Origin: Deferrisomatales bacterium
GTDB taxonomy: Bacteria > Desulfobacterota > Deferrisomatia > Deferrisomatales > JACRMM01
Direction: 5' to 3'
DNA: 64,000 nucleotides
Assembly: GCA_033551855.1 (NCBI GenBank)
Contig: JAWSUI010000006.1
Coordinates: forward strand, 58,788 to 122,787
Positions within the stretch are counted from its first letter, which is position 1. Each line of letters opens with the position of its first letter. The notes under the pieces are model-generated. The model worked only from the letters and a program-made list of their open reading frames with translations, was not told the DNA's origin and ran no database searches. Positions 13,588-33,900 of the stretch are shown here, in pieces. A program made the translations under genes and the position numbers.

Positions 13588-14148
13588 TCAACGAGCCGCC
13601 AGGTCTCTTTCCAGGGAATCCATCCGACGAACGATCTCTGCTCTCTCCTCGCTGGTGGGGTATCTGCCTCCTTCGATCATCCGGGAGTGGTCCACCCGAA
13701 TGGAGTCCAGCCTGGCTTGGAATTCCTTTCCTTCCTTGGGACGCAGGCGCCCGCTGGCTCTTCCATCGTCAATTTTTCGTTGCAGTCCGAGCATCCTGTC
13801 CCCCGTCCTTTGCTCATCGCCCTTGGGCGCCCTGGCAGCCTCCCTGTCGATCTCCGCCCCGAGCGCATCGAGGCGCCCATGCACGCCCTTCCACTTTTCC
13901 TCGTAGAGCGTCTTGCCCCTGAGCGCCTCGGCGTCGGTTCGGATGCCCTTGAGTGTGGTCAGATACATCTGGGACTGGTCCGGAGTGAGGCTGCCGGTCT
14001 TCAGCCCGTCGCCGATCTTCTCCTGGATGAGAACCATCTTGTCATCCACCCTTCTTTCGTGATCGGGCCATACGCGCATTGTCGCACAACCTGATAGCAG
14101 GGCCAGCGAGAGAATGAGTGACGTAGTGATGCCCATGGAAGCTCTCAT
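13588..14148 (-). CDS. Hypothetical lipoprotein with two internal helical repeats
   Basis: Lipobox LSGC; IQEKIGDGLKTGSLTP / LQRKIDDGRASGRLRP repeats. Confidence 0.7.
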   Translation of the reverse strand: MRASMGITTSLILSLALLSGCATMRVWPDHERRVDDKMVLIQEKIGDGLKTGSLTPDQSQMYLTTLKGIRTDAEALRGKTLYEEKWKGVHGRLDALGAEIDREAARAPKGDEQRTGDRMLGLQRKIDDGRASGRLRPKEGKEFQARLDSIRVDHSRMIEGGRYPTSEERAEIVRRMDSLERDLAAR

Positions 14149-14343
14149 CTCTTTTATCCTTTTCTTCGAGGTCTACCTCATTTGTACAGTCTCTGCCTTC
14201 ACAGTTGGCACGACGCTGCTCGTATTCCCGCAGAAAAACTTGAGAAGGAGCGATCTTCAACAATTCGTCACGTTCTCCTCTAGAGAAAAGGGGGCCCGCT
14301 TCGCTTGACCCATCCTACGGCTCGCCATCGCCTCAAGCGGAAC

Positions 14344-14364
14344 GCTGACGGCTGACCGCTGACA
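14344..14364. repeat. Heptamer tandem repeat (GCTGACN)x3
   Basis: GCTGACG GCTGACC GCTGACA read directly. Confidence 0.6.
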
Positions 14365-14418
14365 GCCGCGAGGCGGCGCCTCGGCGGTCTGAGGCGGGGC
14401 TTAGCTAGTCCGTCCAAA

Positions 14419-14434
14419 AGCAATCACCGTGCCG
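14419..14434 (-). promoter_or_regulatory. Putative sigma54 (-24/-12) promoter facing the lipoprotein/ABM/sulfur genes
   Basis: Reverse strand CGGCACGGTGATTGCT: GG-N10-GC with GGCACG and TTGC. Confidence 0.6.
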
Positions 14435-14627
14435 GACGGGATTCGGGGGATGCCGAGGTGCCAGGCTTTGACCGGCCGGGACAAGATGGGCGGAGCGCCC
14501 GCTGTGCCGGCATTCCTTCCCGTCGCATTTGGCGGGCCTGCTAAATGCGACGGCAAAGCTTGAAGACTTTCCCGCTCTGTTCCCATCCGGTAAGGCATTG
14601 TCATCCAAATCGCCGGCACGTTGTCCC

Positions 14628-14643
14628 CGGCACGGTAGTTGCG
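14628..14643 (+). promoter_or_regulatory. Putative sigma54 (-24/-12) promoter upstream of the esterase-kinase genes
   Basis: CGGCACGGTAGTTGCG: GG-N10-GC, about 120 nt before ATG 14764. Confidence 0.6.
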
Positions 14644-14763
14644 TCTAGCTCCGGCTGGCACTGAATCTGTCTAGAGCGCTGATGCTTCGAATCACTTCCA
14701 CCTCGAGCCGGAGGCGGCAGTGCCGAGAGGCGGATCGCAAACGGGAATCGAAAGGGTGACCCC

Positions 14764-16443
14764 ATGAGAAGCGTCCGGCGGCTCTGCATCGTCCTGCTCG
14801 GCAGCGGCAGCCTTTTCGCCACTGCGTGCGGGCAGCAGGGCTCGAACGGCGACGGCGAGCCGACCCACTTCGCCGCCCGTGATTTTCGCGCGGTGGCCGG
14901 GATCAGCATGGGCGCGTACGGGGCCATGAACCTCGGGACGAAGCGGCCGGACCTCTTCGGGACGATCGGGTCTCTCGGAGGCCCGGTCGACATGCAGGAG
15001 CTCCTGGCCCAACTGATCGGTGAGAACCTCGAGGTGAAGCCCCAGGCGGGCGTTCCCGGGCAGGAGGGGGACGACTTCACGTTCGATCACATGAAGCCGT
15101 ACCCAAGCCGCAACACGCGCATCCGCATGATCCAGGACCTGGTGTTGGCTTTCGGGAACCCGTTCCTGCACCACCCGGACCCCTCCAGGCGCTACCTCGC
15201 CTCCGACTCCGAGCCCGCTGCCGTCGGAAGGGACGATCGGTATGGATCGTTTTCGCCTCTCGTCGATCCCCGGGGGTTTCTCGACGGGGGTGACGCGAAT
15301 GCCGACGGGCTCCGCCAGGTGGGGGAGGTGCCCGATCGGCCCACCGACGTGCTCCTGCTCGCGCCGGGGTCGCTGGCGTCGGTGTTCGGGCTGGCGGGTA
15401 CCATGGTGGGCGGGCGTGAGCTCGTCGACCTCGACGCCGACGGGATCTATGACGTGGGCGACGGCATCGTGGTGAACTACTCGGAGCCCTTTGTGGACCT
15501 GAACGGCAACTTCGTCTTCGAGCCCGAGCTGGGAGAGACCTTCGAAGACCTGGGACTCGACGGGGTGGCGGGGACTGGCGACTTCGGCGAGGGCAACGGC
15601 GTCTTCGACTACGACCCGGACCGCAGCGCATGGCTGGCGGAGGATCCCCTCTCGCGGTTGGCCGCGCGGCCGGCCGCCGAGATCGCCTCCCAGAGGATCT
15701 ACATGGACGTGGGCACCGGGGACGAGTTCGGGTTTGCGCGCCACTACGACAACGTCGTGGCGATGCTTGACCGCAAGGGGCTCTCGCCGGTGGTGCGAAA
15801 CGGCTTCTCCGGCAACTGCTTCGCCGTGCCGAGACCTTCGGAGCCCTTCCTCCTGATCCGGTACGACGGCGGACACGTGGGAATCCCAGGAGACGACGCG
15901 ATTCGAGACGACCTGCTCAGCGGAGACTTCTGCGGCGCCGTTCCCATCTGGCAGCGCCTGCTGACGCTCATCGGCTACCTGGACCGGAGCTTCCCCGACG
16001 GCTTCTTCGGGGCGGGGGGGCTCCACCTGACCGGGGACGTGATCACGCGGGCGATCCCTTCCCCGGCCCTGGCGACCGGCGGTCAGCCCGCGCCCGGGCG
16101 CGAGGTCGTGGTGTACCGGCCGCCCGCGTTTGCCAACACGAACCGGAGCTTTCCCGTCGTCTACTTCCTGGGAGGGTACGGTCAGGACCCCGAGGACTAT
16201 CGGCGGATGGGCAATTTCCTGGACGTGCTGATCGGAGCCGGAGCCGTACAGAACATGTGCTTCGCGTTCCTACCGGGCTCGGGGGGGCACCGGGGCTCCT
16301 TCTTCGTGAACCACCGCGTTCCCGAGTCCCAAGTGCCCGGGCTGGCCACGGTCACGAGCGGCCGCTACGAGGACTCGATCCTCCAGGATCTCATCCCGGA
16401 GATCGAGAACGGCATCCTGGACGGCCGCGTGCGGGCGCAGTGA
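14764..16443 (+). CDS. Lipoprotein with circularly permuted alpha/beta-hydrolase (PF00756-type esterase) and Asp-rich insert
   Basis: Lipobox ATAC22; GISMG (Ser48); DVGTGD (Asp320); GGH (His371); C-terminal SPAL..REVVVYRPP..FPVVYFLGG..YEDSILQDLIPEIE. Confidence 0.75.
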   Translation: MRSVRRLCIVLLGSGSLFATACGQQGSNGDGEPTHFAARDFRAVAGISMGAYGAMNLGTKRPDLFGTIGSLGGPVDMQELLAQLIGENLEVKPQAGVPGQEGDDFTFDHMKPYPSRNTRIRMIQDLVLAFGNPFLHHPDPSRRYLASDSEPAAVGRDDRYGSFSPLVDPRGFLDGGDANADGLRQVGEVPDRPTDVLLLAPGSLASVFGLAGTMVGGRELVDLDADGIYDVGDGIVVNYSEPFVDLNGNFVFEPELGETFEDLGLDGVAGTGDFGEGNGVFDYDPDRSAWLAEDPLSRLAARPAAEIASQRIYMDVGTGDEFGFARHYDNVVAMLDRKGLSPVVRNGFSGNCFAVPRPSEPFLLIRYDGGHVGIPGDDAIRDDLLSGDFCGAVPIWQRLLTLIGYLDRSFPDGFFGAGGLHLTGDVITRAIPSPALATGGQPAPGREVVVYRPPAFANTNRSFPVVYFLGGYGQDPEDYRRMGNFLDVLIGAGAVQNMCFAFLPGSGGHRGSFFVNHRVPESQVPGLATVTSGRYEDSILQDLIPEIENGILDGRVRAQ

Positions 16444-16455
16444 GGCGGATGCACG

Positions 16456-17724
16456 ATGAAAAGTGAAGGTGTGCGACCCGACGGCTTCACCGCGCTGCGC
16501 CGGCGCGCCGAAGCGCGGGCTCGGAAAGGTGCGGCGCAGCCGCCGGAGAACGTCGCGGCGCTGTCGCCCGAGGAAGCGCGACGGACACTCCACGAGCTGC
16601 GGGTGCACCAGATCGAACTGGAGATGCAAAACGAGGAGCTGCGCCGCACGCAGGCGGAGCTGGAGCTCGCGCGGGCGCGCTATTTCGACCTCTACGATCG
16701 GGCGCCGGTAGCGTACTGCACGCTTACGGAGTGGGGCATCATCCGCGAGGTCAACCTCACCGCCGCCACCCTGCTGGGGGTGACCGCGGGGGCGCTGGTC
16801 GGGCAGCCGATCACCCGGTTCATCCTCGGTGAGGACCAGGGTTCCTTCGTCGACCTGCGCGAACGGCTCTTTGCGACCGGCGACCCGCAGGAATGCGAGC
16901 TGCGGATGCTGAGCCGGGCAGGGGACGCCTTCTGGGCGCATCTGGGCGCCACCGCCGCGCGCGACGCCGAAGGCGCCCTCGCGTGCCGCGTGGTGCTGAG
17001 CGACGTCAGCGGGCGCAAGAAAGGGGAGGAGGCCTTGCTCCGATCCCTCGACGAGCTCCGCCAGGTCTCCGCCCTGCTGCTCGCGGCCCAGGAGGAGGAA
17101 CGCGGGCGGTTCTCCCGCGAGCTGCACGACGGCGTCTGCCAGACGATGATCGCCATGAAGATGACACTGGAGGCCGCTCTGGGCACACAGGGACCGGCGC
17201 CAGAGCGGCTGGCCGCCATCGACCTCCTCGTCCCCATGATGCGGGACGCGATCCAGGAAGTGCGCGGGGTTTTCATGGCGCTCCGACCTGCCATCCTGGA
17301 CGACCTGGGGCTCGTGGCCGCGATTCGCTGGTTTGCCCGCGAGTTGCAGACGGCCTACCCGGCGATGCGGATCGTCCTTCGGATCGAGGTGGACGAGCAG
17401 GACGTTCCCAACCCCCTTCGCACGGTCATCTTCCGGGTGCTGCAAGAGGCGATGACCAATGCCGGCAAACACAGCGGAGCGGACGAAGCGGTCGTCTCGC
17501 TCGCGAAGAGCGGCGGCCTGTTGGAGTTTGGCGTCGAGGACAACGGGCGCGGGTTCGACGCGGACGCGCCACGGGTGGGGGAGGGCGCCCAGTGCGGGGC
17601 TGGCCTCGGCTGCATGCGGGTGCGCGTCGAGCGTGCCGGGGGATCCCTCGAGGTGCAAGCCCGGAAGGGGGAGGGAACGGCAATCCGGGCGCGTCTGCCG
17701 CTCGCCGCCGGGTGTGCCGCTTGA
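16456..17724 (+). CDS. PAS-domain histidine kinase (HisKA_3/NarX-like)
   Basis: EEERGRFSRELHD, FRVLQEAMTNAGKHS, VEDNGRGF, GLGCMR. Confidence 0.9.
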   Translation: MKSEGVRPDGFTALRRRAEARARKGAAQPPENVAALSPEEARRTLHELRVHQIELEMQNEELRRTQAELELARARYFDLYDRAPVAYCTLTEWGIIREVNLTAATLLGVTAGALVGQPITRFILGEDQGSFVDLRERLFATGDPQECELRMLSRAGDAFWAHLGATAARDAEGALACRVVLSDVSGRKKGEEALLRSLDELRQVSALLLAAQEEERGRFSRELHDGVCQTMIAMKMTLEAALGTQGPAPERLAAIDLLVPMMRDAIQEVRGVFMALRPAILDDLGLVAAIRWFARELQTAYPAMRIVLRIEVDEQDVPNPLRTVIFRVLQEAMTNAGKHSGADEAVVSLAKSGGLLEFGVEDNGRGFDADAPRVGEGAQCGAGLGCMRVRVERAGGSLEVQARKGEGTAIRARLPLAAGCAA

Positions 17725-17833: not shown

Positions 17834-19129
17834 ATGAACCCATCCGAGATGCCGGGGGACCTGCGCCGGCGCGCCCAGGGGCGGCTTGGGGAGAGCCCCC
17901 GGGTTGCGGCTCTTCCCCAGACCGAAGAGGGCCTCACGCGGCTCGTGCACGAGCTCCAGGTCCACCAGGTGGAGCTGGAGCTCCAAAACGAGGAGCTCTG
18001 CCGGGCCAAGAATGCGCTCGAGGAGTCGAGCGCGAGGTACGCGGACCTGTACGACTTCGCGCCCGTGGGCTACTTCACGCTCGATCGCGAAGGGCGGCTC
18101 CTCGGGGCGAACCTCCGGGGCGCGGGCCTTCTGGGGCTGGAGAGGCCTCGGCTGGCGGGCCGGCGCTTTGGGGACTTCGTGGCCGCGGACGCGCGCCCCG
18201 CCTTCGCAACATTCCTCGCGGGCGTCTTCGCGGGGAAGCGCCTGGCGACCTGCGAGGTCCCCCTGGCCGCGGGCACCAGGTCCCCGCGCCACGTGCGGAT
18301 CGAAGCCGCCCTTTCCCCGTCCGGCGGCGAGTGCCGCTTGGCGGTCAGCGACATCACCGAGCTGAAGCGGGCGGAAGAGGAGCGGGCACGCCTGGAGGGG
18401 CGGCTGCGCGAGGCGCAGAAGATGGAGGCGATCGGAGCCCTGGTGGGGGGGATCGCACACGACTTCAACAACCTGCTCGCCCCCGTGGTGACCCGCGCCG
18501 AGATGGCGCTGCGGACGCTCGGCAGCGAAGACCCCGTTCGGGAGAACATCGCGCAGCTCCTGACCGCGGTGCTGCGTGCCGCCGAACTCGTCCGGCAGAT
18601 CCTCCTCATCGGCGGCGGGGAGCAGGAAGGCACCTTCGTGCCCGTGGATCTCGGGCCCCTCGTCCACGAGGCCGCGGCGGGCCTTCGCGCCACCCTGCCC
18701 GCGACGGTCGAGGTCCGGTCGGAGGCCGACCCCGCTTGCGGGCCGGTGCTGGGCGACCCTTCGCGGCTTCGCCAGGTCCTCCGGCACTTGTCCGAGAACG
18801 CCGGGTATGCGCTGGAGGAGACGGGGGGGCTGCTCGCGATCTCTCTGGATCGGGCCGGGGGCGAGCAGGAGGGGGGCCGGGTGAGGCTGCGTGTCCGAGA
18901 CACGGGACCCGGCATTCCCGGGGAGATCCAGGGCCGCATCTTCGAGCCCTACTTCACCACCAAGCCCGTCGGCAAGGGGTCGGGCCTGGGCCTCTCCGTC
19001 GTGTACGGAATCGTCTCGGCGCTCGGAGGGGAGGTCCGGGTCCGGAGTGGGAACGGGGAGGGCACGACCTTCGAGGTGCTGCTTCCCGAAGCCGCAGAAA
19101 GGGGGGTTCCGCTTGCGCTCGTGTCGTAG
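17834..19129 (+). CDS. PAS-domain histidine kinase (HisKA, NtrB-like), no receiver
   Basis: QKMEAIG.L.GGIAHDFNNLL, VRDTGPGI, IFEPYFTTK..GKGSGLGL. Confidence 0.9.
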   Translation: MNPSEMPGDLRRRAQGRLGESPRVAALPQTEEGLTRLVHELQVHQVELELQNEELCRAKNALEESSARYADLYDFAPVGYFTLDREGRLLGANLRGAGLLGLERPRLAGRRFGDFVAADARPAFATFLAGVFAGKRLATCEVPLAAGTRSPRHVRIEAALSPSGGECRLAVSDITELKRAEEERARLEGRLREAQKMEAIGALVGGIAHDFNNLLAPVVTRAEMALRTLGSEDPVRENIAQLLTAVLRAAELVRQILLIGGGEQEGTFVPVDLGPLVHEAAAGLRATLPATVEVRSEADPACGPVLGDPSRLRQVLRHLSENAGYALEETGGLLAISLDRAGGEQEGGRVRLRVRDTGPGIPGEIQGRIFEPYFTTKPVGKGSGLGLSVVYGIVSALGGEVRVRSGNGEGTTFEVLLPEAAERGVPLALVS

Positions 19130-19293
19130 GATGTCACCGGGGAACCAACGCAGGCGCCGGGATTGCGATTTCGCAGACCCAGGCTAGCATTGCGTGGGCG
19201 CAAACCACCGGGGGACTGCTCCAGCGTGTTTCGCCCCGCCCCAAAGATTTGGTGGTGGTTTCTGTATTGCACCTACGAGAAAGGCAAGCGCGC

Positions 19294-21978
19294 GTGACCA
19301 GACGTGCCAAGCAGAGCGGCCCCGCGAACCCCCCTTCGGCGTCGCCCGAGAGCCCGGTGCCGGGGGATGCGTTCCCCGTCGTCGGCCTCGGCGCCTCGGC
19401 CGGGGGGCTCGAGGCGCTGGAGCAGTTCCTGGACCACGCGCCGGCCGACTCGGGCATGGCGTTCGTGGTGGTGCAGCACCTGGACCCGACCCACAAGGGC
19501 GCCCTGCCCGAGCTCCTCCAGCGCCGCACCCGGATGCAGGTCTCTCAGGTCGAGGAGGGGATGCGGGTGGAGCCCAACCGCGTCTACGTGATCCCTCCCA
19601 ACCGGGACCTGTTCCTGGAGGGCGGCACCCTGCGGCTCCTGGAGCCGGCGGAGCCCCGGGGGCTCCGCCTGCCCATCGACTCCTTTTTCCGCAGCCTGGC
19701 CCGGGACCTGGAGGAACGGGCCATCGGCGTCATCCTCTCCGGCATGGGCTCGGACGGCACCCTGGGGCTGCGGGCGATCAAGGAGAACGCCGGCCTCACC
19801 CTGGTGCAGGACCCGGGCTCCGCCAAGTACGACAGCATGCCCCGCAGCGCCATCGACGCGGGGATCGCCGACTTCGTGGCTCCGGCCCAGGAGCTGCCGG
19901 TCAAGCTGCTGGCCTCGTTCCACGGCACCCTGGTCGCCGAGGTGGAGGACCAGGAGGCCGAAAGGAAGTCGCCGAGCGCCCTGGAGAAGATCGTGGCCCT
20001 GCTGCGCGCCCGCACCGGCCGCGACTTCGCGCCCTACAAGCGCAGCACCATCTCCCGGCGGGTCGAGCGGCGCATGGGCATCCACCAGCTCCGGACGATC
20101 GCCCGGTACGCGGACTTCCTGCACGACAACCCCCAGGAGCTCGCCCTGCTCTCCCGGGAGCTCCTGATCGGGGTGACGAGCTTCTTCCGCGACCCCAAGG
20201 CCTTTGCCGCCTTGCGGGAGAAGGCCCTGCCGGCGCTGCTCGCGAGCCGGCCGGCCGGCCGCGTCTTCCGGGTCTGGGTGCCCGCGTGCGCCACGGGGGA
20301 GGAGGCGTACTCCCTGGCCATGCTCCTGAAGGAGGCCCTGGAGGAGCGGCAGGCGGCGGCGGGGCGGAGCGGCGGCGACCGCGTCCAGGTCTTCGCCACG
20401 GACCTCGACCCGGACGCCGTCGCCCGGGCCCGGCAGGGGGCCTACCCCGAGGGCATCGCCGCCGACGTCTCGCCGGAGCGCCTGCGGCGCTTCTTCGTCA
20501 AGGAGGGCGGCGCTTACCGGGTGGCCAAGGAGCTTCGTGACACCGTCGTCTTCGCGCCGCACAACGTCATCACCGACCCGCCCTTCACCAAGCTCGACCT
20601 GCTCTCGTGCCGCAACCTCTTGATCTACTTGACCGCCGACGTACAGAAGAAGCTCCTGCCGCTGTTTCACTACAGCCTCAACCCCGAGGGCATCCTCTTC
20701 CTGGGCTCGGCGGAGACCGCCGGAGGCTTCCCCGACCTCTTCTCCCCCATCGACCCCCAGGCGAAGCTCTATCGTCGCCGCCCGTCCTCGGCCGCCGCGA
20801 GGGCCGTGGAGTTCCCCTCCTCCTACGCCCCGTCCGAGGACGACGAACTGGGGGCCGTCCGGGGGGCGCCACGCTCCCCGGGGGCCGGCCTCCAGGAGCT
20901 GGTGGACGGGGTGCTCCTCCGGGAGTTCGGGCCGCCGTGCGTGCTGGTGGACGAGCGGGGCGACCTCCTCTACGTCCACGGCCGCACCGGCAAGTACCTG
21001 GAGCCGGCGGCGGGAAAGGCCAACCTCAACCTCTTCGCCATGGCGCGCGAGGGCCTGCGCCATCCCCTCTGGAGCGCCGTGCAGAAGGCCCAGGAGGGGC
21101 AGGAGCCCGTTCGCTGCAAGGGGCTGCGGGTGAAGACCAACGGCACCCACCAGCGCGTGGACGTCACCGTGAAGCCCCTGGGGGAGCCGCAGGCCCTGCG
21201 GGGGCTCCTGCTGGTGCTGTTCGAGGAGGTGGCCGCTCCCCGCCGGCGAAGCCGCTCCCGCCCGGCGCCTTCCGGGGGGGTCGAGGCGCTGCCGGGAAGG
21301 GTGGAAGAGCTCGAGCGGGAGCTCCAGCAGAGCCGGGAGTACCTGCAGACCACGCAGGAGGAGATGCAGACCTCCCAGGAGGAGCTCAAGAGCGCCAACG
21401 AGGAGCTCCAGTCCACGAACGAGGAGCTCCAGAGCACCAACGAGGAGCTCACCACCTCGAAGGAGGAGATGCAGTCCTTGAACGAAGAGCTTCTCTCGGT
21501 CAACACCGAGATGCAGGCCAAGATCGAAGAGCTCTCCCGCACCTCGAACGACATGAAGAACCTCTTGAACAGCACCGACATCGCCACCCTGTTCCTCGAC
21601 AACGACCTGAACGTGCGCCGCTTTACCGGCCAGACGACCCGCATCATCAAGCTCATCCCGAGCGACGTGGGGCGGCCCATCACCGATATCGTGTCCGACC
21701 TGAGCTACCCCGGCCTGGCCGACGACGTGCGAGACGTGCTGGAAACCCTCGCCTTCCAGGAGCGGGAGGTCGCGACGGTGGACGGGCGCTGGTTCCAGGT
21801 GCGCATCCTGCCCTACCGCACCTACGAGAACCGCATCGACGGCGTGGTGCTCACGTTCTCCGACATCACCGTCGCCAAGCAGCTCGAGCAGGCTCTGCGG
21901 GATGCGCAGCAGGCGGCGCAGCAGCGGATCGAGACCCTGGAATCCGCGGTGACGACAAAAGGGGAGGGCCGTTCATGA
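19294..21978 (+). CDS. CheB-CheR fusion with PAS and methyl-accepting-type coiled coil (MAC-like), no kinase domain
   Basis: GASAGG, VQHLDP, GMGSDG (CheB); VTSFFRD, CATGEEAYS, SCRNLLIY (CheR); NEELQSTNEEL heptads; GTG start inferred. Confidence 0.92.
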   Translation: MTRRAKQSGPANPPSASPESPVPGDAFPVVGLGASAGGLEALEQFLDHAPADSGMAFVVVQHLDPTHKGALPELLQRRTRMQVSQVEEGMRVEPNRVYVIPPNRDLFLEGGTLRLLEPAEPRGLRLPIDSFFRSLARDLEERAIGVILSGMGSDGTLGLRAIKENAGLTLVQDPGSAKYDSMPRSAIDAGIADFVAPAQELPVKLLASFHGTLVAEVEDQEAERKSPSALEKIVALLRARTGRDFAPYKRSTISRRVERRMGIHQLRTIARYADFLHDNPQELALLSRELLIGVTSFFRDPKAFAALREKALPALLASRPAGRVFRVWVPACATGEEAYSLAMLLKEALEERQAAAGRSGGDRVQVFATDLDPDAVARARQGAYPEGIAADVSPERLRRFFVKEGGAYRVAKELRDTVVFAPHNVITDPPFTKLDLLSCRNLLIYLTADVQKKLLPLFHYSLNPEGILFLGSAETAGGFPDLFSPIDPQAKLYRRRPSSAAARAVEFPSSYAPSEDDELGAVRGAPRSPGAGLQELVDGVLLREFGPPCVLVDERGDLLYVHGRTGKYLEPAAGKANLNLFAMAREGLRHPLWSAVQKAQEGQEPVRCKGLRVKTNGTHQRVDVTVKPLGEPQALRGLLLVLFEEVAAPRRRSRSRPAPSGGVEALPGRVEELERELQQSREYLQTTQEEMQTSQEELKSANEELQSTNEELQSTNEELTTSKEEMQSLNEELLSVNTEMQAKIEELSRTSNDMKNLLNSTDIATLFLDNDLNVRRFTGQTTRIIKLIPSDVGRPITDIVSDLSYPGLADDVRDVLETLAFQEREVATVDGRWFQVRILPYRTYENRIDGVVLTFSDITVAKQLEQALRDAQQAAQQRIETLESAVTTKGEGRS

Positions 21979-23828
21979 CCCGTGCGCGGAAGGGGTCAAG
22001 AGACGCCCAACCCCTGCGCCGGCGCGCGGAGAGTTGGCTGCAGGGAAGGCCGCCCGGCCCTGCGGGGGACCCGGCGCCCGCAGACCTCCCGAGGCTCCTC
22101 CACGAGCTCCAGGTCCACCAGGTGGAGCTCGAGATGCAAAACGAAGAGCTCCGCGGGACCCAGGCGGAGCTCGAGTCCGCGCGCGACGCCGCCCAGGCCG
22201 CCAATCGGGCGAAGAGCGCCTTTCTCGCCAACATGAGCCACGAGATCCGGACCCCCTTGAGCGCCGTCGTCGGGATGCTGCGCCTGCTGCGCGGCACATC
22301 GCTCGACGACACCCAGCGCCGCTATGCCGAGCTGGCGGCAAGCTCTGCCGATCACCTGCTGCACCTCATCGACGACCTCCTGGACTTCTCCAAGATCGAA
22401 GCCGGCAGGCTGGAGCTGGAGTCCGTGGCGTTCAGCCCGAGACTCGTCGTCGAGGACACCGTCAGCAGCCTGGCGCCTCAGGCGAAGGCGAAGGGCATCG
22501 GCCTGACCCACCGGATCGGACCCCTGGTCCCGGGATTTCTCGCGGGCGACCCGCACCGGCTCCGACAGGTGCTGTTGAACCTGACCGGCAACGCCGTGAA
22601 GTTCACCCGGAAGGGCGAGGTGACGGTGTGCGTCGGCATCGACGGGGAGGTGCGCGGTTCCGAGCCGCCGATCCCCGGTTCGAGAGTCCCGAACGGGAAC
22701 AGGGATCCGGGAGCCGGCAACGCCGTGCGCGTGCGGTTCACCGTCCGCGATACCGGCATCGGGGTGCCGATCGACTCGCTGGACCGCCTCTTTCGGAGCT
22801 TCAGCCAGGTCGACGGCTCGACCGCACGGGTGCACGGGGGCACGGGCCTCGGGCTCGCCATCTCCAAGCAGCTCGTGGAGCAGATGGGCGGCTCGATCGA
22901 CGTGCAGAGCGCGGAGGGAAAAGGCAGCATCTTCGCGTTCACGGTTCCGTTCGCCCCAGCCCCGATCGATCTCTGGGCGCCCGAGAGCGCGGTCGGCGAC
23001 GAGGCTGCGCTGCTCCCCCCGCCATCCCAGGTTCGCATCCTGGTCGCAGAGGACGAGTCGGCCAATCGCGAAGTCGCAGTCGAGTACCTGCGGTGGCGGG
23101 GCTGGCTCGTGACGGCGGTTGCAGACGGCGGGGCGGCGGTGGAAGCCCTGCTCTCCGAGCCCTACGACCTCGTCCTGATGGACGTCCAGATGCCCGGGCT
23201 CGACGGTATACAGGCCACGAGGCGCATCCGGGAGCGGGAAGCGTCCGGCGGAGCCCGCGTGCCGATCATCGGTCTCACGGCGCACGCCCTTCCGGAGGAC
23301 CGGGCGCGGTGCCTCGAGGCCGGCATGGACGACTACCTCGCCAAGCCCGTGGAGCCCGAGACGCTGCACGCGGCCGTGGAGCGGTGGCTCGGGAGGCGGC
23401 CCCGTCCGCTGCCCCTGAAGGAAGTCCCGAACCGAGCCGGTCGTGCCCTGCTCCTCGCGAGTCTCCAGAGCGGGAGCGGGCAGGAGGGGAATCTCGGGCG
23501 GGGCTTTCTCGGCACCGTGAACGAGGGCCCCGGGCAAATCCGCAAGGCGTTGTCCCTGGCGGACGCGGAACGGGCCGCCTCCTGGGCCCACCGCCTGCGG
23601 GGAACCCTGCTCATCTTCGGGTTCCCGGTGGCCGCGGCCGTTGCCCGGGAGATCGAGGCGCGGGCCGCGGAGGGCCGGCTCGACGGCGTCACCGAGCTCG
23701 TGGGGCGGCTGGACGAGGAGATCCTTCGGGTCAAGGCCCTGCTTGCGGGGGCCGCGGGCGCCCAGACCGGCACCCCCGGGGAGGGGCCTCCGGGGAAAGA
23801 CCCGTCGGAGAGGAGTGACTTCCCTTGA
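21975..23828 (+). CDS. Hybrid histidine kinase (HisKA-HATPase-REC-Hpt)
   Basis: ATGA overlap with the CheBR gene; KSAFLANMSHEIRTP, GGTGLGL, LVAED..DLVLMDVQMP..DG, AHRLRG. Confidence 0.92.
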   Translation: MTRARKGSRDAQPLRRRAESWLQGRPPGPAGDPAPADLPRLLHELQVHQVELEMQNEELRGTQAELESARDAAQAANRAKSAFLANMSHEIRTPLSAVVGMLRLLRGTSLDDTQRRYAELAASSADHLLHLIDDLLDFSKIEAGRLELESVAFSPRLVVEDTVSSLAPQAKAKGIGLTHRIGPLVPGFLAGDPHRLRQVLLNLTGNAVKFTRKGEVTVCVGIDGEVRGSEPPIPGSRVPNGNRDPGAGNAVRVRFTVRDTGIGVPIDSLDRLFRSFSQVDGSTARVHGGTGLGLAISKQLVEQMGGSIDVQSAEGKGSIFAFTVPFAPAPIDLWAPESAVGDEAALLPPPSQVRILVAEDESANREVAVEYLRWRGWLVTAVADGGAAVEALLSEPYDLVLMDVQMPGLDGIQATRRIREREASGGARVPIIGLTAHALPEDRARCLEAGMDDYLAKPVEPETLHAAVERWLGRRPRPLPLKEVPNRAGRALLLASLQSGSGQEGNLGRGFLGTVNEGPGQIRKALSLADAERAASWAHRLRGTLLIFGFPVAAAVAREIEARAAEGRLDGVTELVGRLDEEILRVKALLAGAAGAQTGTPGEGPPGKDPSERSDFP

Positions 23829-26976: not shown

Positions 26977-27939
26977 ATGTTCCGACACATCCTCGTTCCT
27001 CTCGATGGTTCTCCCCTGGCCGAGTGCGTGCTGCCCCACGTGGCGGCCCTGGGCAAGGCGTTCGGCGCCGACGTGACCCTCCTCCACGTCTTGCCCGAGT
27101 CCTCTTCCGCAGGCCGGATGATGCCCGTCGACCCCCTCGAGTGGCAGGCGAGCCGGGCCGGTGCCTGGATGTATCTGGACGAGAAGGTGGAGCTGCTCGG
27201 GACGCAGGGGGTCAAGAGCTCCCGCGTGCTCCTGGAGGGGCAACCTCCCCAGCGCATCCTCGAGCACGCCCAGGAGCACGGCGCCGACCTCATCGTCCTC
27301 AGCAGTCACGGGAAGGACGGTTTGAGCGGCTGGAACCTTGCCAGCGTCGCGCAAAAGACCGTTCTTCGGTCGCGGGTCTCCACCCTGGTGATCCGCGCGT
27401 ATCGGGCCGAGACGGCGGGGCCGGACGTGCCGGCCTACCGCAGGGTGCTGGTGCCCCTGGACGGGTCCCAGAGGGCGGAGTGCGCCCTCTCCCCGGCCAC
27501 GGCCCTGGCGGGGTTTCTCGGGGCCGAGCTGGTGCTCGCGCACATCCGGGTGCGTCCCCGCCCCTATTTTCCCCAGCAGGGGCCGGTCCGCCCGGAAGAT
27601 ACGGAGCTCATCGAGCGGCTCGTCGAGCGCCAGGAGGGGGAAGCGCAGCAGTACTTCGACCGGCTCAAGGCCCGGCTCCCCCTGGCCGTCCGCACCCGAA
27701 TCGCCGTAAGCGAGCAGGCCGCGGTGGCTCTCTACGACGTGATCCGGGAAGAGCAGGCCGACCTGGTCGTCATGAGCGCCCACGGCCACACCGGGACGAC
27801 GCGCTGGCCCCACGGGCGGACGACCACCCACTTTCTCCTCTACGGGGCGACGCACGTGCTGATCGTGCAGGATCTTGCGCCCCACCCGTGCGAACTCACC
27901 GAGGCGGAGCAGGCGGCCGCGGAAGTGCCGGGGCACTGA
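26977..27939 (+). CDS. Tandem universal stress protein
   Basis: AGGAGG RBS; ILVPLDGS twice; ADLIVLSSHG / ADLVVMSAHG. Confidence 0.92.
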   Translation: MFRHILVPLDGSPLAECVLPHVAALGKAFGADVTLLHVLPESSSAGRMMPVDPLEWQASRAGAWMYLDEKVELLGTQGVKSSRVLLEGQPPQRILEHAQEHGADLIVLSSHGKDGLSGWNLASVAQKTVLRSRVSTLVIRAYRAETAGPDVPAYRRVLVPLDGSQRAECALSPATALAGFLGAELVLAHIRVRPRPYFPQQGPVRPEDTELIERLVERQEGEAQQYFDRLKARLPLAVRTRIAVSEQAAVALYDVIREEQADLVVMSAHGHTGTTRWPHGRTTTHFLLYGATHVLIVQDLAPHPCELTEAEQAAAEVPGH

Positions 27940-27943
27940 CGCG

Positions 27944-30900
27944 ATGGCCCCGAAGAGCCCTGCCGCCGCGGAAGCTCCCCGCGAGCTCACGCGCCGCGAC
28001 GACCCCCTAGCGGACCGCGCTCGGGAACTGGCGCAGCGCCACCATGTGTCGAAGCGCCGGAGCACCGGCTCCCTCACGGCGCGCGTGGCCGAGCTGAAGA
28101 ACGGGATCGATCGGGTGGCGCGCCACTGGTCCCAGGCGTCGATCCAGGCCTCCGATCTCGCCTACGCGGCGGAGTGGCTGCTCGACAACCTCTACGTGGT
28201 GCGGCGGGCGCTGCGGGAAGTCCGGGAAGACATGCCGGCCGGCTACTATCGCAGCCTGCCCCGGTTGACCCTCCCCGAGCTCGGGGAGGAGCCTCGGATC
28301 TACGCCGTGGCCACCGAGCTCCTCCGCGGGTGCCGTGGGCGGTTCTCGGGCGACGACGCGGAGCACTTCCTCCACGCCTATCAGGAAACCCGGCCTCTCA
28401 CCATGGGCGAGCTCTGGGCGCTCCCCACCATGCTGCGGTTCACGGCGTTGGAAGTCCTCGCCGAAGCGGTGTCCCGTTTGAGCGGGCTGCCCTTCGCCGG
28501 GCGGCCTCTGGCCGGATCCGAGGGCAAGTCCTCCTCGTTCGGCTGGACGGAGGAGCTGTCCAGCGTGGACCGGGTCTCCACCGCGATCGCCAGCTTGCGA
28601 GCCCTGGATGCGATCGACTGGAGCGCGTTTTTCGAGGCGGTGAGCCACGTCGAGCGCGTCCTTCGAGGCGATCTCACGTACGCGTCGATGGATTTCGACA
28701 CCCGCGACCGGTACCGGCGCGAGGTGGAGTCACTGGCGTCCACTTCGCGCAGGGAAGAGGTTCCCGTGGCGGAGGCGGCGCTCGAGTTCGCCTCGCGGAT
28801 GCCTTCGAACCGGGGCGATCCGGCCCAGGGGCATGTGGGCTGTGCCCTCCTGGGGGAAGGCCGCCGGGAGCTGGAGAGGGAGCTCGGCTGCCTCCTGCCG
28901 CTGGGCCTCCGGCTCCGTCGCCTGCTCCTGGCCCATCCCACGTTCGTCTATCTGGGGGGGATCGGCTCGCTCGCGGCCGGTCTGTGGCTGCTGGCGGTGG
29001 CCTACGGCGTCTCGCGAGGAGGCGGCGCCGGGCAGGTGGCGGCCGTGGCCGTGTTGACGGCCGTCCCCGCGCTCACGATCGCGGTGGCCCTCGTCAACTG
29101 GCTGCTGACGCTCTCCCTTCCCCCCCGCGTGCTCCCCAAGCTGGACTTCCGAGAAGGAATTCCAGGGGACTGCCGGGCCATGATCGTGGTTCCGGCGCTC
29201 TTTCGGGACGGGCACGACGTCGACTCCCTCCTCGAACAGCTCGAGCTCCATCACCTGAGCAATCCCGACCCCCTGCTGGGCTTCGCGGTGCTGGCCGACT
29301 TCGCAGACGCGCCCCGGGCGCACATGGTGGGCGACGGGCCCATCGTGGAGCGGGCCAAGACGGCCCTGGAGGCGCTCAATCGGCGCTACGGCCGGGACGG
29401 CCCCGGGCCCTTCTACGTGTTTCTCCGGGAGCGCCGCTGGAATCCCTCCGAGGGCGTGTGGATGGGGTGGGAGCGCAAGCGGGGGAAGCTCGAGGAGTTC
29501 AACCGCTTGCTCCTCGGGGGCGGGCCGACCTCGTTCACGGTGCAGGCAGGAGATCTCTCGGTGCTTCCCGAGTTCCGCTACGTCCTCACCGCGGACGCGG
29601 ACACCGGCCTCCCCCGAGGCAGCGCCGCGCGGCTGGTCGGAACGCTGGCCCACCCGCTCAACCGCCCCCACGTGGACCCTCGGAGCCGCAGGGTCGTCGC
29701 CGGGTACACGATCCTCCAGCCCCGCGTCGAGATTACCGCCGTGAGCGCCAACCAATCGCCCTTTTCCCGGATCTTTTCCGGCGACACCGGGCTCGATCTG
29801 TACTCCCGCGCCGTCTCCGACGTGTACCAGGATCTGTTCGGGGAGGGCCTGTACGTGGGCAAGGGGCTCTACGACCTCGACGGCTTTCATCGGACGCTGG
29901 AGGGGGTCGTTCCGGAAAACAGCCTGCTGAGCCACGATTTGCTGGAGGGCGTCCACGGTCGGGTGGCCCTGGTGACCGACGTCACCCTCCTGGAGGACTA
30001 CCCGGGTGCCTACCTCCCCTGGGCCAGCCGGCAGCACCGGTGGATCCGCGGAGACTGGCAGCTCCTGCCGTGGCTCTTCCTCGGGCGCTCCCGGCAGGGG
30101 GCGGGGCGCTCCCTGCCGGCCATCCATCGCTGGAAGATCGCCGACAACCTGCGGCGAAGCCTGCTCGCCCCGGCGCTCCTGGCCTGGCTGGCGGCGGCCT
30201 GGCTGTGGCTTCCCGGGTCGGCCCTGCTGTGGACCCTGCTGGCCGCGCTCACCCCGGAGGTTCCCCTCTTGACGTCCGCGGGGCAGGAGGTGGCGGCGCG
30301 GGCCCGTCGAGGGGCCTGGGCGGGACCGGTGCCCGCCCTGCGCCGGCACGCGCTGCGCTGGCTCCTCCAGTTGGCCTTTCTGCCGTACGAGGCGTTTCTC
30401 ACGCTCGACGCCATCGTTCGCACGTTGTTTCGCCTGGGCGTGACCCGGCGAAACCTCCTGGAGTGGACGACCGCCGCGCACACCTCTCGGCTGTTCCAGG
30501 ATGGGGGCGGGCATCTGCGAACCTGGACCCGCATGGCGGCGGCGCCGCTGTCGGCCGGCCTCCTGGCGTGGGCTGTCGCCGCGGTCAACCCCACTGCGCT
30601 TCTCGCTGCCGCTCCGTTTCTGCTGGCCTGGATGCTCGCCCCCCACCTCGCCTGGCGGATCAGCAAGCCGGAGGTCGTCACCGCGAAGCTCGCCACCCCC
30701 GAGCAGCGCTACCGCCTCTCGTGGCTCGCCCGGCGGACCTGGTTCTTCTTCGAGCGGTTCGTGGGGCCCGACGACCACTGGCTTCCCCCGGACCACTTCC
30801 AGGAGTCACCGAAGGGCGTGGTGGCCCACCGCACCTCTCCCACGAACGTGGGGTTGGGACTCCTCTCGACCCTCTCCGCCCACGACTTCGGGTATATCGG

Positions 30901-33900
30901 CAAGCTGCTGCTGGCCTTTCGCGTGTCGCAGGCCTTCGAGAGCCTCGACCGCCTGGAGCGGTACCGGGGCCACTTTCTCAACTGGTACGACACCCGGACC
31001 CTGAAGCCCCTGCACCCGCGGTATGTCTCCACCGTGGACAGCGGCAACCTGGCGGCCAGCCTGGTGGCCCTGCGGGAGGGCTGCCTGGAGGTGCTCGAGG
31101 CGCCCGTGCTGCGCTGGGAGGAGTGGCAGGGCCTCCTGGATACGCTCTCGGTGCTCGCGGAGGAGCTGGAGCGCATGAAGGAACCCGCCCATACGGTCTT
31201 CTCTCCCGTGCGGGCGCATCTGGACGAAGTGCGCCGGCAGATCCTCGCCGTGCGGCACGACCGGCTCCGCTGGCCGCCGCTGTGGGAGACGCTCGCCGAA
31301 CGGCAGGGCCCGGAGCTGGCCCGGTTGCTCGGCGTCCTGCTCGACCAAGGCACCGTGGGCATGTCTGCCGGCGAGCTGGACGGCCTGCGAGACTGGTCGG
31401 AGCGGATTCGGCGGCAGTTGCACAACACCCTACGGGAGCTCCGCACCCTGACTCCGTGGCGCTTCTCGCTGGCGCACGTGCCGGAGTTGCTGCGATCCGG
31501 GCCGGAAAGCGGGCTGCAGCGGGCCTGGCGAGCCCTGCGGGGCCGGCTGGAGGCAACGGAGAGCCTCGTTGCCCTGGCCGGCGCGTACGAGACACACCGG
31601 GAGGGGCTGCGTGATCTGGTACTGCGGACCCGCCGGGCCCCCACCAGCTCGGAAGCAGAACGCGAACGGGCTGCGGGTTGGCTCGAGGATCTCCTGGGGT
31701 CGCTCCGGAGGACCGAGAACGTGGCTCGGGAGCTCGTAAAGCGGTACACAGACATCATGGCACGGGCCGAGCGCACTGTGGCCGCCATGGATTTTCGTTT
31801 CCTGTTCGATTCCCGGCGCAAGCTCTTCACCATCGGCTACAACGTCGACGCCGAGCAGCACGACACGAACCACTACGACCTGCTCAGCTCGGAGGCACGG
31901 GTCGCGAGCCTCCTGGCCATCGCCAAGGGAGATGCGCCCCAGGCTCACTGGCTCCACCTCGGCCGTCCGGTGACGCAGCTGAACGGCTCGCGAGCGCTCC
32001 TGTCCTGGAGCGGAACCCTGTTCGAGTACCTGATGCCCCTGTTGCTCCTCGAGGAGCACCCGGGGACGCTGCTCGCCGAGAGCGACCGGGCGGCGATGAA
32101 GTGGCAGGTCGCGTACGGGCAGCAGAAGGGGGTCCCCTGGGGCGTCTCGGAATCGGGCTACTACCGATTCGACACCCAGCAGAACTACCAGTACAGGGCC
32201 TTCGGGGTGCCGGGCCTCGGGTTGAAGCGCGGGCTGGAAGAGGACCTGGTGGTGGCGCCCTATGCGTGCCTCCTGGCCCTCCCCCTCGATCCCCAGGAGG
32301 TGATGGACAACGTCGAGCGCTTGATCGAAGAAGGGCTGCTCGGGGGGTACGGTCTCTACGAGGCCGTGGATTACACGCCGTCGAGGCTGACCCTGGGCCA
32401 GAAGAAGGCGCTTGTGCGCTCCTACATGGCGCACCACCAGGGCATGATCCTCGTCTCGCTCGGCAACTATCTCCACAAGGGCCCCATGGTGCGCCGTTTT
32501 CACCGCGACCCCTCGATTCGCAGCGTGGAGATGCTCCTCCAGGAGCGGATCCACCACACGGCCCCCCTCGAGAGACCCCACCCCTCGGTTTCGGAAGGCT
32601 CGCTCAAGGAACGCAGGGCCGCGCGACACGAACCGTGGTCGGCGCCCCTCGATGCGCCGTTCCCGCTCGTGCACTTCCTCTCGAACGGCACCTACGGCGT
32701 GTTGATCACGAGCGGGGGCGGCGGCTACAGCCGGTGGGGAGACGTGGATCTCACGCGCTGGCGCGCCGACACGACAGGGGACGACTGGGGCACCTGGATC
32801 TACCTTCGGGACGTGGACGCCGACGCCCTCTGGTCGGTCGGCTGTCAGCCCACGGGGACCGGGCTCCAGGGTAGGACGGTCACCTTCTCGGCCCACAAGG
32901 CCGACCTGCGCTGCGAGCTCCACCAGATCGCCGTCTCGACGGAGATCGCCGTCCACCCCGAGGATTCGGTGGAAGTGAGACGGGTCGTGCTCACCAACAA
33001 GAGCTCGAGGCCCCGCCTCCTGCAGGTGACCAGCTACGGGGAGGTCGTGCTCGCCCCCCAGGACACCCGTCACCCCGCCTTCAACAAGCTCTTCATCGAG
33101 AGCCGATTTCTCGAGGACGCCAACGCCCTGCTGTTTTCCCGCCGTGCGCGCGGTCCCGAGGAGAGCCCCGTCCACCTGGCCCACCTGCTGGTCCTGAAAG
33201 AGGGGGCCGCGAAAGGGGATTGTGAAACCGATCGGGCCCGCTTCTTGGGGCGCGGCGGCACGGTGCGCAGACCTGCGGCGCTGGGTGCGGGAGGCGAGGG
33301 GCTCACGGGCACCACGGGCGCGACGCTCGATCCCGTGTTCTCTCTGTCGCAACAGATCATCCTGGAACCGCACGCCACCGTCGAGCTGGCGTTCGTCACC
33401 CTGGCGTCGGAGAGCCGCGAGCAGGCCCTTACCCTGGCCGAGCGCTACCGCCAGTGGAACCAGATCCACCGGGTCTTCGGCGAGGCGCGCACCCACAGCG
33501 AGATCGAGCTGGAGCGCACGGGCCTCACCACGGCGGAGCTCGAGCGGTTTCAGGTGTTGTTGAGCCTGCTCCTCTACCCCCACGAAGCCCTTCGGGCAAA
33601 GCCCCACGTGATCGCCGCCAACCGTTTGGGCCAGCCGGGGCTCTGGCCGTTTGCCATCTCCGGCGATCATCCGATCCTACTGGTCCGGGTCGGGGCCGAG
33701 GACGAGGCGGGCGTCGTGCTGGACGTCTTGAAGGCCCACGCGTACTGGAGGAGCCGCGGGCTGCGAGTGGACCTGGCGATCCTGAACGAGAAGCAGGCCG
33801 GGTACTCCCAGGAGGTCCAGGGCCACCTCCAGCGGCTGGTCGCCCAGACGGGGGGCGACGCATGGCTGGACCGGCACGGAGGCATCTTCCTGCTCCGGGC

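What the first reader, a model, noticed from the sequence alone, without database searches (positions are those of the whole stretch)
14764..16443. Circularly permuted esterase lipoprotein heading a signalling cluster
PF00756-type esterases normally run S..L...R...VY.PP - YPV.Y.LHG - YE.FI..ELIP.IE - RAI.G.SMGG - Asp - GGH - terminal helix. Here the order is swapped. The nucleophile strand RAVAGISMG (Ser48) directly follows the lipobox. Asp (DVGTGD, 320), His (GGH, 371) and the usual last helix (W.RLLTLIGYLDRSF) come next. Only after a Gly-rich linker does the normal N-terminal half (residues ~424-559) appear, ending at YEDSILQDLIPEIE. The motifs and their order are seen in the sequence; the canonical order is established knowledge; a natural circular permutation with an intact triad is inference. 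The first kinase starts 12 nt downstream.
Basis: partly seen in the sequence, partly recalled or inferred. Interest (0 to 1): 0.82.

Follow-up and report, generated by a model that had tools for sequence, protein, structure and literature searches.

The report
Circularly permuted esterase with novel cap
This gene encodes an esterase-family protein whose two sequence halves are swapped relative to its closest relatives, an order shared by hundreds of homologues, and it is predicted to fold into one normal enzyme core, like a known fungal bioplastic-degrading enzyme, with an extra acidic domain of unrecognised shape.

Summary
ORF 14764..16443 (+, 559 aa) has a signal peptide and lipobox Cys22, followed by the Ser48 nucleophile elbow, Asp320 and His371. 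The part that forms the N-terminal half of ordinary PF00756/CE1 esterases comes last (residues ~425-559).

It is not an assembly chimera. All 120 listed homologues share the order, the termini and Asp/His, and contigs bridge the junction.

The permutation type (beta1-4 moved to the C-terminus) is already published for type-2 PHB depolymerases. By sequence, however, this clade sits with non-permuted CE1 esterases, not with 2D80 (E 0.48).

A conserved ~217-residue acidic insertion at the lid position folds confidently on its own (pLDDT 91) and has no PDB match.

The kinase adjacency (12-nt gap) is real but is not conserved across the family. The substrate is unknown. Verdict: new variant of a known kind.

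The parts
14764..16443 (+). Whole ORF, 559 aa plus stop: circularly permuted PF00756-type esterase lipoprotein
14764..14829 (+). Signal peptide and lipobox (residues 1-22, Cys22 in LFATAC)
   Evidence: The sequence shows it. Cys is in this column in 108 of 120 family members. Lipid modification is inferred.
14830..14877 (+). Gly/Ser/Pro-rich tether (residues 23-38), low-confidence in the model
14878..15012 (+). Strand beta5, nucleophile elbow G-I-S48-M-G, helix C and strand beta6 (residues 39-83). The Ser48 codon is 14905-14907.
   Evidence: Pfam best stretch 39-87 matches profile 113-159. Ser is present in 110 of 120 members; the other 10 start at Met49. Model elements E42-47, H49-60, E67-71.
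15013..15663 (+). Conserved acidic insertion at the lid position (residues 84-300). It contains one EF-hand-like loop, DLDADGIYDVGD, at residue 222, and the run GLDGVAGTGDFGEGNGVFDYDPD.
   Evidence: Conserved down to 24-40% identity. 40 Asp+Glu against 15 Lys+Arg. Folded alone: pLDDT 91.1, pTM 0.86. No PDB fold match.
15664..15990 (+). Strand beta7, Asp315/Asp320 loop, helix E, strand beta8, His371 loop and the former last helix F (residues 301-409). Asp320 codon 15721-15723; His371 codon 15874-15876.
   Evidence: Asp315, Asp320 and His371 are present in 120 of 120 members. Model elements E311-317, H324-337, E362-367, H389-409. This part aligns to the C-terminal halves of canonical esterases.
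15991..16035 (+). Gly-rich linker joining the old C-terminus to the old N-terminus (residues 410-424). Its length varies among homologues.
   Evidence: Alignment A1 has indels here. A contig of run X1 bridges it.
16036..16440 (+). Transposed former N-terminal half: beta1-beta4, helices A and B, and the oxyanion-loop equivalent L469-G-G-Y-G-Q (residues 425-559)
16444..16455 (+). 12-nt spacer between the esterase stop and the kinase start; no terminator-like site
16456..17724 (+). Downstream PAS / HisKA_3 / HATPase_c histidine kinase, the first gene of the local signalling cluster

Best explanation
The gene encodes a member of a large bacterial clade of PF00756/CE1-type alpha/beta-hydrolases whose sequence order is circularly permuted, and it is predicted to be a lipid-anchored, exported serine esterase that works through Ser48, Asp320 and His371. 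Shown by calls or sequence: the block that carries strands beta1-beta4 and helices A and B in ordinary relatives lies at the C-terminus. The protein starts, after a signal peptide, lipobox and tether, with the nucleophile strand. The cut lies in the helix B / strand beta5 loop, and the old termini are joined by a variable Gly-rich linker. The termini and the candidate triad are fixed across the family. Predicted: the two parts fold into one normal hydrolase core with the same connectivity as the permuted P. funiculosum PHB depolymerase. Inferred: the oxyanion hole is formed by the backbone of Met49 and the L469-GGYG loop, so half of the catalytic machinery is supplied by the transposed C-terminal block. 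A conserved 217-residue acidic domain inserted at the usual lid position (after beta6) likely binds Ca2+ and likely shapes the substrate pocket. The substrate is probably an ester outside the cytoplasm, possibly polymeric, but it is not identified. In this genome the gene is probably co-transcribed with the kinase 12 nt downstream. That link is local to this lineage.
Against: No activity data exist and no substrate clue comes from the neighbourhood, since no operon partner is conserved. The whole-protein model has a mean pLDDT of only 60.9 because the insertion was poorly modelled in that run. For the insertion alone, only the best of five models reached 91; the others scored 65-78. Two of 20 distant clade members lack the Ser, so some branches may be non-catalytic. 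Ca2+ binding rests on motif resemblance only: the pattern scan found one DxDxDG-type loop, and Pfam reports no EF-hand. The assignment of Asp320 rather than Asp315 as the catalytic acid rests on a recalled alignment with esterase D. No signal-peptide or lipoprotein predictor was available.
Confidence: 0.82

Rival explanations
1. The permuted order is an assembly chimera or mis-join of two esterase fragments, or a frameshifted tandem pair.
For: The window comes from a 132-contig assembly. In run X1 no single listed contig spans the whole stretch.
Against: All 120 listed homologues, from many sources, share the same order and the same termini. There are 42 loci in different MAGs. The X1 contig covers 14600-16109 across the linker, and a second contig covers 16083-16628. 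The single open frame has no stops.
Confidence: 0.01
2. It is functionally a polyester (PHB/PHA-type) depolymerase, a bacterial counterpart of the type-2 catalytic domain enzymes.
For: The best structural match is P. funiculosum PHB depolymerase with identical connectivity. The oxyanion-loop equivalent lies C-terminal to the triad, as in type-2 domains, and position x1 of GxSxG is hydrophobic (Val in 79, Ile in 31, of the 110 members with a residue there), a feature stressed for PHA depolymerases (passage seen in PMC2666664). The protein is predicted to be exported.
Against: There is no sequence kinship. PF10503 does not hit. NF050058 scores 17.2 bits against a cut-off of 150. 2d80 scores only E 0.48 against the clade profile, while CE1 feruloyl esterases reach 5.8e-34. 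No substrate-binding domain was found by Pfam. The query-aligned segment of the feruloyl esterase chain 6rzn_A reads GLSMGG in the alignment printed, so a hydrophobic x1 is not specific. The top structural rank may simply reflect shared connectivity.
Confidence: 0.2
3. The esterase is a functional partner of the downstream kinases, for example by releasing or removing a signal that the PAS kinases and the CheB-CheR fusion sense.
For: The gap is 12 nt with no terminator-like site. The esterase GC content (0.682) matches the downstream block (0.70-0.72) and not the upstream DNA (0.60-0.63). L010 (78% identity) has the CheB-CheR homologue 258 nt downstream. Two-component genes lie within 4 kb in 13 of the up-to-42 loci (10 with hybrid kinases and 5 with sigma-54 response regulators, 2 with both).
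Against: The two kinases between the esterase and CheB-CheR are absent in L010. In the other loci the two-component genes differ in type, strand and distance. No neighbour is conserved family-wide. The loci are related to each other, and these lineages carry many two-component genes (the last point is my recall), so 13 of 42 is at most weak enrichment.
Confidence: 0.12
4. It is a non-catalytic pseudo-enzyme, a binding or structural lipoprotein that only retains the fold.
For: Two of 20 distant clade members have lost the Ser. The large acidic domain could be an adhesion or binding module.
Against: In the 120-member family, Ser is present in all 110 sequences that reach that column, Asp320 and His371 are in 120 of 120, and the GGYGQ loop residues G471-Q474 are in 120 of 120. 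That pattern indicates selection on catalysis.
Confidence: 0.05

Closest known systems
Polyhydroxybutyrate depolymerase of Penicillium funiculosum (PDB 2D80/2D81) and the 'type 2' catalytic domains of extracellular PHB depolymerases
   Different: There is no detectable sequence relationship beyond the elbow (E 0.48). 2D80 is 318 residues and lacks the 217-residue acidic insertion. This protein has a lipobox instead of a plain secretion signal. PHB activity was not tested here.
Canonical PF00756 / carbohydrate esterase family 1 enzymes (feruloyl esterases 7XRT, 6RZN, 1JJF; soil metagenome esterase 8Z91; esterase D / S-formylglutathione hydrolase 3FCX)
   Same: These are the closest relatives by sequence: E 5.8e-34 for 7xrt and 7.9e-30 for 8z91 against the clade profile, and the Pfam score is above the gathering cut-off. 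They share the same G-x-S-M-G elbow, the D.G..D.F acid loop, the GGH histidine loop and the RYED...IE helix B.
   Different: Their order is beta1-4 first and then the triad. Here the two blocks are swapped. They lack the acidic cap, and several carry CBM48 or other modules instead.
[quoted passage not shown]
   Same: They show that an alpha/beta-hydrolase tolerates new termini and remains active (passage seen in PMC8540959).
   Different: They are man-made, cut at a different site, and belong to a different family.

Membership tests
Pfam PF00756 (Esterase; esterase D / CE1-like) | Score above the Pfam gathering cut-off | tested here: met
   52.6 bits against a cut-off of 22, E 7.2e-14, 3 stretches
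Pfam PF00756 (Esterase; esterase D / CE1-like) | Collinear match to the profile (beta1-4 block before the nucleophile) | tested here: not met
   Blocks are cyclically rotated against PDB chains and against 14 of 14 canonical relatives
Pfam PF00756 (Esterase; esterase D / CE1-like) | Ser-Asp-His triad residues conserved (GxSxG elbow, acid loop, His loop) | tested here: met
   Ser48 in 110 of 120 members (the other 10 start at Met49). Asp320 and His371 in 120 of 120.
Pfam PF00756 (Esterase; esterase D / CE1-like) | Carboxylic-ester hydrolase activity | not testable with these tools
   Needs an enzyme assay
Circularly permuted alpha/beta-hydrolases of the type-2 PHB depolymerase kind (2D80) | Strands beta1-4 follow strand beta8 and helix F in the chain; nucleophile strand first | tested here: met
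Circularly permuted alpha/beta-hydrolases of the type-2 PHB depolymerase kind (2D80) | [quoted passage not shown] | tested here: met
   The loop equivalent to the canonical HG loop (L469-G-G-Y-G-Q) lies after His371 and is conserved, with G471-Q474 in 120 of 120. Its oxyanion role is inferred.
Circularly permuted alpha/beta-hydrolases of the type-2 PHB depolymerase kind (2D80) | Sequence homology to PHB depolymerase families (PF10503, NCBIfam dPHAscl models, 2D80) | tested here: not met
   No PF10503 hit. NF050058 scores 17.2 bits against a cut-off of 150. 2d80 scores E 0.48, at the elbow only.
Circularly permuted alpha/beta-hydrolases of the type-2 PHB depolymerase kind (2D80) | Hydrolysis of PHB; presence of a substrate-binding domain | not testable with these tools
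Pfam finds no binding domain.
Bacterial lipoproteins (lipobox / signal peptidase II substrates) | Basic n-region, hydrophobic h-region and a lipobox ending in an invariant Cys | tested here: met
   MRSVRR-LCIVLLGSGSLFATA-C22. Cys is in this column in 108 of 120 members. A strict PROSITE-like pattern, written from recall, matched 90 of 120. No dedicated predictor was available, and acylation itself is not testable here.
EF-hand-like / DxDxDG calcium-binding loops | 12-residue loop with acidic ligands at positions 1, 3, 5, 9 and 12 and Gly at position 6 | tested here: inconclusive
   One exact loop at residue 222, DLDADGIYDVGD. The clade consensus is DLNGNGxRDxGE. Eleven acidic columns are near-invariant in 73 sequences. 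No Pfam EF-hand hit. The loop consensus is recalled.

The most novel reading that the evidence does not exclude
The beta1-4-to-C-terminus permutation arose a second time, independently of the PHB depolymerases, inside the CE1/PF00756 esterase lineage. It is still traceable at the sequence level on both sides of the cut. It became fixed together with a calcium-binding cap domain of a fold not yet seen in any solved structure. Together these define a large uncharacterised clade of exported esterases in Binatia, Myxococcota-like and other soil and sediment bacteria.
Probability: 0.35. Interest if true: 0.65.

Novelty: new variant of a known kind. Interest (0 to 1): 0.5.

Why it matters
Natural circular permutations of the alpha/beta-hydrolase fold are rare. 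The standard example, the fungal PHB depolymerase, is recognisable mainly by structure. In this clade both halves still match non-permuted relatives by sequence (E 1e-16 to 1e-21 for one block and about 1e-9 to 1e-12 for the other). The cut site, the linker and the relatives on either side of the event can therefore be studied directly.

Three consequences follow:
- It offers a natural test of whether the helix B / beta5 loop is a preferred place to re-open this fold.
- It shows that domain-order-dependent annotation under-describes hundreds of proteins currently labelled 'hypothetical' or 'enterochelin esterase-like'.
- It points to a conserved acidic cap domain with no structural match, which may confer an unexplored substrate specificity of possible use in polyester or plant cell-wall ester hydrolysis.

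Tried and rejected
- **Assembly chimera:** rejected.
- **Paralogues in the own genome:** the gene is single-copy.
- **Own phylum:** among 200 other sampled genomes, 7 had only partial matches to ordinary esterases (E 5e-7 to 1e-3) and none had a full-length match. This means 'not found in those searched', not 'absent'.
- **Conserved operon partner:** none found. tblastn with 7 window neighbours against 42 loci gave CheB-CheR only in L010 and the upstream ABM and lipoprotein genes only in L009. Clustering 226 flanking ORFs gave, at most, hybrid kinases in 10 loci and sigma-54 regulators in 5.
- **Upstream RNA:** Rfam found nothing in the 615-nt upstream intergenic region at E up to 1.
- **Promoter and terminator scan:** no promoter-like site. 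The one terminator-like site is inside the ORF, below the shuffle mean of 2.2.
- **Kelch-like hit:** the designed propeller 7ong matched residues 266-334. I judged this a compositional Gly/Asp resemblance, and it fell to E 7.6e-4 with the profile.
- **Tandem-esterase intermediates:** among 11 long relatives scanned, P0219 and P0245 each show two PF00756 stretches, so tandem arrangements may exist. This is not evidence for the route taken here.
- **RNA evidence:** no RNA holder was listed.
- **Earlier findings of this scan:** none by sequence.
- **Literature:** full-text searches found no paper describing a permuted PF00756/CE1 esterase. A search for 8Z91 found nothing. Subscription-only papers, including Hisano 2006 itself, were not searchable. 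I saw it only as cited by others.

Full report
**Observation.**
The window holds a 559-codon ORF at 14764..16443 on the + strand. Its translation shows the following, in order:
- a basic n-region and hydrophobic stretch ending in LFATA-C22;
- a short Gly/Ser/Pro tether;
- RAVAGISMG with Ser48;
- a long Asp/Gly-rich stretch;
- YMDVGTGDEF with Asp315 and Asp320;
- YDGGHVG with His371;
- the helix IWQRLLTLIGYLDRSF;
- the Gly-rich stretch PDGFFGAGGLHLTGD;
- a block that reads like the start of an ordinary PF00756 esterase (VVVYRPPAF ... FPVVYFLGGYGQ ... RYEDSILQDLIPEIE) and stops 11 residues later.

The next ORF, a PAS/HisKA_3/HATPase_c kinase, starts 12 nt after the stop. The only correction is that about 16-20 tether residues separate the lipobox from the nucleophile strand.

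**Is the order really swapped?**
Pfam PF00756 scores 52.6 bits (cut-off 22) in three stretches, the best being residues 39-87 against profile positions 113-159 of 251. In phmmer against PDB sequences, residues 424-550 align to the first part of esterase chains (8z91_A 3-105, 6rzn_A 146-256). Residues 37-71 align to later parts of the same chains (131-163 and 261-295).

A profile of 36 family members raises 8z91_A to E 2.5e-21. It gives three stretches in cyclic order: 432-529 to chain 2-106, 39-74 to 128-163, and 278-330 to 230-283. A wider profile of 20 sequences, down to 26% identity, gives 7xrt E 5.8e-34 and 8z91 E 7.9e-30, each in two stretches.

I built an HMM from the 120 listed family members and ran it on the 14 nearest canonical-order relatives from the exhaustive search. 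In 14 of 14 the target order is HMM 430-560, then 41-96, and in 7 of 14 a third block at 291-357. The first two blocks lie 4-27 residues apart in the targets. The cut therefore lies in the loop between helix B and the nucleophile strand, and nothing was lost. This meets the classical sequence definition of a circular permutation.

**Is it an artefact?**
No. The word-indexed search found 258 proteins at E <= 0.001. All 120 listed cover at least 91% of the query, are 513-700 aa long, and are 57-100% identical.

Counts from a MAFFT alignment of those 120:

| Column | Members with the residue |
|---|---|
| Ser48 | 110 of 120 (the other 10 begin at Met49, i.e. shortened gene calls) |
| Asp315, Asp320, His371 | 120 of 120 each |
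| G471, Y472, G473, Q474 | 120 of 120 each |
| Lipobox Cys22 | 108 of 120 |
| Protein ends 2-4 residues after the Arg555 column | 112 of 120 |

The genome-contig scan returned 42 loci. All are MAGs, mostly labelled Candidatus Binatia or 'delta proteobacterium', with some labelled Polyangiaceae, Planctomycetota, Thermodesulfobacteriota, Acidobacteriota or Actinomycetota.

In public runs, a 5605-nt contig of run X1 covers 14600-16109 with 4 differences and so crosses the linker at 15991-16035. A second contig covers 16083-16628 across the stop and the kinase start. In run X2, from another study, contigs of a relative cover 15963-16186. X1 may be the source sample, so the homologues are the independent evidence.

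**Do the halves form one domain?**
AlphaFold2 with the 36-sequence alignment gave a mean pLDDT of 60.9. The core was confident, with 10-residue blocks of 79-95 at about 41-70, 291-370, 391-500 and 541-559. Residues 84-286 were poor. The element order is E42-47, H49-60, E67-71, then the insertion, then E311-317, H324-337, E343-346, E362-367, H389-409, then E425-432, E445-452, E465-469, H482-491, E499-503, H535-551. This reads as beta5-C-beta6 ... beta7-E-beta8-F followed by beta1-beta2-beta3-A-beta4-B.

Foldseek agrees: 131-146 columns for the canonical feruloyl esterases against 231-243 for 2d80/2d81. Because 2D80 is a single-domain enzyme, aligning both parts at once means that they pack as one hydrolase core in the model.

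**What is already known.**
- The PHA Depolymerase Engineering Database paper defines 'type 2' catalytic domains by an oxyanion hole C-terminal to the triad. It lists bacterial examples (Acidovorax, Caldimonas, Comamonas, Delftia, Schlegelella, Streptomyces exfoliatus) alongside P. funiculosum (passages seen, PMC2666664).
- The 2026 CIRPIN paper uses the same enzyme as its example (passages seen, PMC13552848).

The connectivity is therefore a known kind. Two things differ in this clade.

First, by sequence it belongs with non-permuted PF00756/CE1 esterases and not with PHB depolymerases. PF10503 does not hit. NF050058 scores 17.2 bits against a cut-off of 150. 2d80 scores E 0.48, at the elbow only. 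This makes an independent permutation at the same loop plausible.

Second, it carries the insertion described below.

Four full-text searches found no paper on a permuted PF00756/CE1 esterase. Subscription-only literature was not searchable.

**Breadth of the clade.**
The exhaustive search of 1.84 billion representatives gave 1053 hits at E <= 0.001, 144 at <= 1e-10 and 31 at <= 1e-30. Distant full-length relatives (30-36% identity, for example P0139, P0158 and P0161) align collinearly with the query from about residue 15-41 to 548-549.

Eighteen hits were scanned with Pfam. In 11, the best stretch starts at profile position 1-11 and lies in the C-terminal part of the protein. In 8 of these it ends within 14 residues of the C-terminus. 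The canonical P0185 and P0225 match collinearly, at profile 7-236 and 10-236.

In a 20-sequence alignment spanning 26-79% identity, Asp315 and Asp320 are invariant and His371 is at least 90% conserved. The S-M-G elbow is present in 17 of 20 (two have lost the Ser and one is N-terminally truncated). One relative carries SLH domains instead of a lipobox.

**The insertion.**
Residues 84-300 lie after strand beta6, the usual lid position (passage seen, PMC11878206).
- They hold 40 Asp+Glu against 15 Lys+Arg and 29 Gly.
- They contain one exact EF-hand-type loop, DLDADGIYDVGD, at residue 222. The EF-hand consensus is from my recall.
- In 73 sequences down to 24% identity, about 11 acidic columns are at least 90% conserved.
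- Folded alone with that alignment, the best model has pLDDT 91.1 and pTM 0.86. The other four models scored 65-78.

I infer a Ca2+-stabilised, loop-rich cap that shapes the active-site entrance. A missing match does not prove a new fold, and the model is a prediction.

**Surroundings.**
Downstream lie two PAS histidine kinases, a CheB-CheR-PAS fusion, a further ORF at 22034..23828 that gave no Pfam hit in the frame I scanned, and a B12-binding radical SAM gene. Upstream, on the other strand, lie an unassigned putative lipoprotein, an ABM monooxygenase and a CitMHS transporter.

There is no terminator-like site between the esterase and the first kinase. The esterase's GC content (0.682) matches the downstream block (0.70-0.72) rather than the upstream DNA (0.60-0.63). 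Co-transcription in this genome is therefore plausible.

The link is not a family feature:
- The CheB-CheR gene recurs only in L010 (76.6% over 900 residues, starting 258 nt after the esterase and without the two kinases).
- The upstream genes recur only in L009.
- Among 226 flanking ORFs, the largest homology groups are hybrid kinases in 10 loci and sigma-54 response regulators in 5, at varied strands and distances.
- The gene is single-copy in its genome.
- No full-length homologue was found in 200 other sampled genomes of its phylum, which suggests patchy and possibly horizontal distribution.

**Mechanism, with status.**
- Shown: the permuted sequence order, fixed termini, conserved Ser/Asp/His and GGYGQ loop, and a conserved lipobox Cys.
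- Predicted: a single alpha/beta-hydrolase core with 2D80-like connectivity, and an independently folding cap.
- Inferred: export and lipid anchoring; Ser48 attack with His371 as the base and Asp320 as the acid; an oxyanion hole formed from Met49 and the 469-473 loop of the transposed block; Ca2+ binding by the cap; an extracytoplasmic, possibly polymeric, ester substrate.
- Unknown: the substrate.

**Verdict.**
The finding is a genuine natural circular permutation, but of a connectivity already described for PHB depolymerases. It is best rated as a new variant of a known kind. It is made more interesting by the sequence-level traceability of the event, the size of the uncharacterised clade, and a conserved cap domain without a structural match.

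Noticed in passing
window 16588-16658 (start of the first kinase); similar motifs near the starts of the ORFs at 17837.. and 22034..: A short coiled-coil-like motif (LHELRVHQIELEMQNEELRR and variants) recurs at the N-termini of the three PAS kinases in the window. In all four metagenome runs laid, summed contig depth at this stretch jumps to 200-620, against roughly 1-80 in the neighbouring bins, so the motif is shared by very many genes in those communities.
   Followed up: no
window 14149-14763, compared with 14764 onward: A compositional step lies at the 5' end of the esterase gene. Upstream genes and the 615-nt intergenic region have GC 0.60-0.63, while the esterase and the following roughly 36 kb have 0.66-0.72. 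This could be an island boundary. No Rfam family and no sigma-70-like promoter was found in the intergenic region.
   Followed up: partly
window 27875-36493 (+): A very long ORF of 2872 aa lies inside the high-GC block. It was not examined.
   Followed up: no
window 13588-14148 (-): A 186-aa ORF with a lipobox-like LALLSGC start and no Pfam family. A 59%-identical copy lies upstream of the esterase homologue in L009.
   Followed up: partly
window 19273-21978 (+): A single ORF fuses CheB methylesterase, CheR methyltransferase (both domains), a coiled coil and a PAS_10 domain. It is conserved at 76.6% identity next to the esterase homologue in L010.
   Followed up: partly
L012:6650-7417, L014:6695-7462, L047:5804-6571: In three Binatia loci a 256-aa ORF with no Pfam family starts 3 nt after the esterase homologue on the same strand. 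It is absent from the window.
   Followed up: no
L038 (contig CAMBZJ010000037.1): One family member sits on a contig labelled as a Klebsiella pneumoniae MAG. Given the rest of the family's distribution, this label looks like a binning or labelling error.
   Followed up: no
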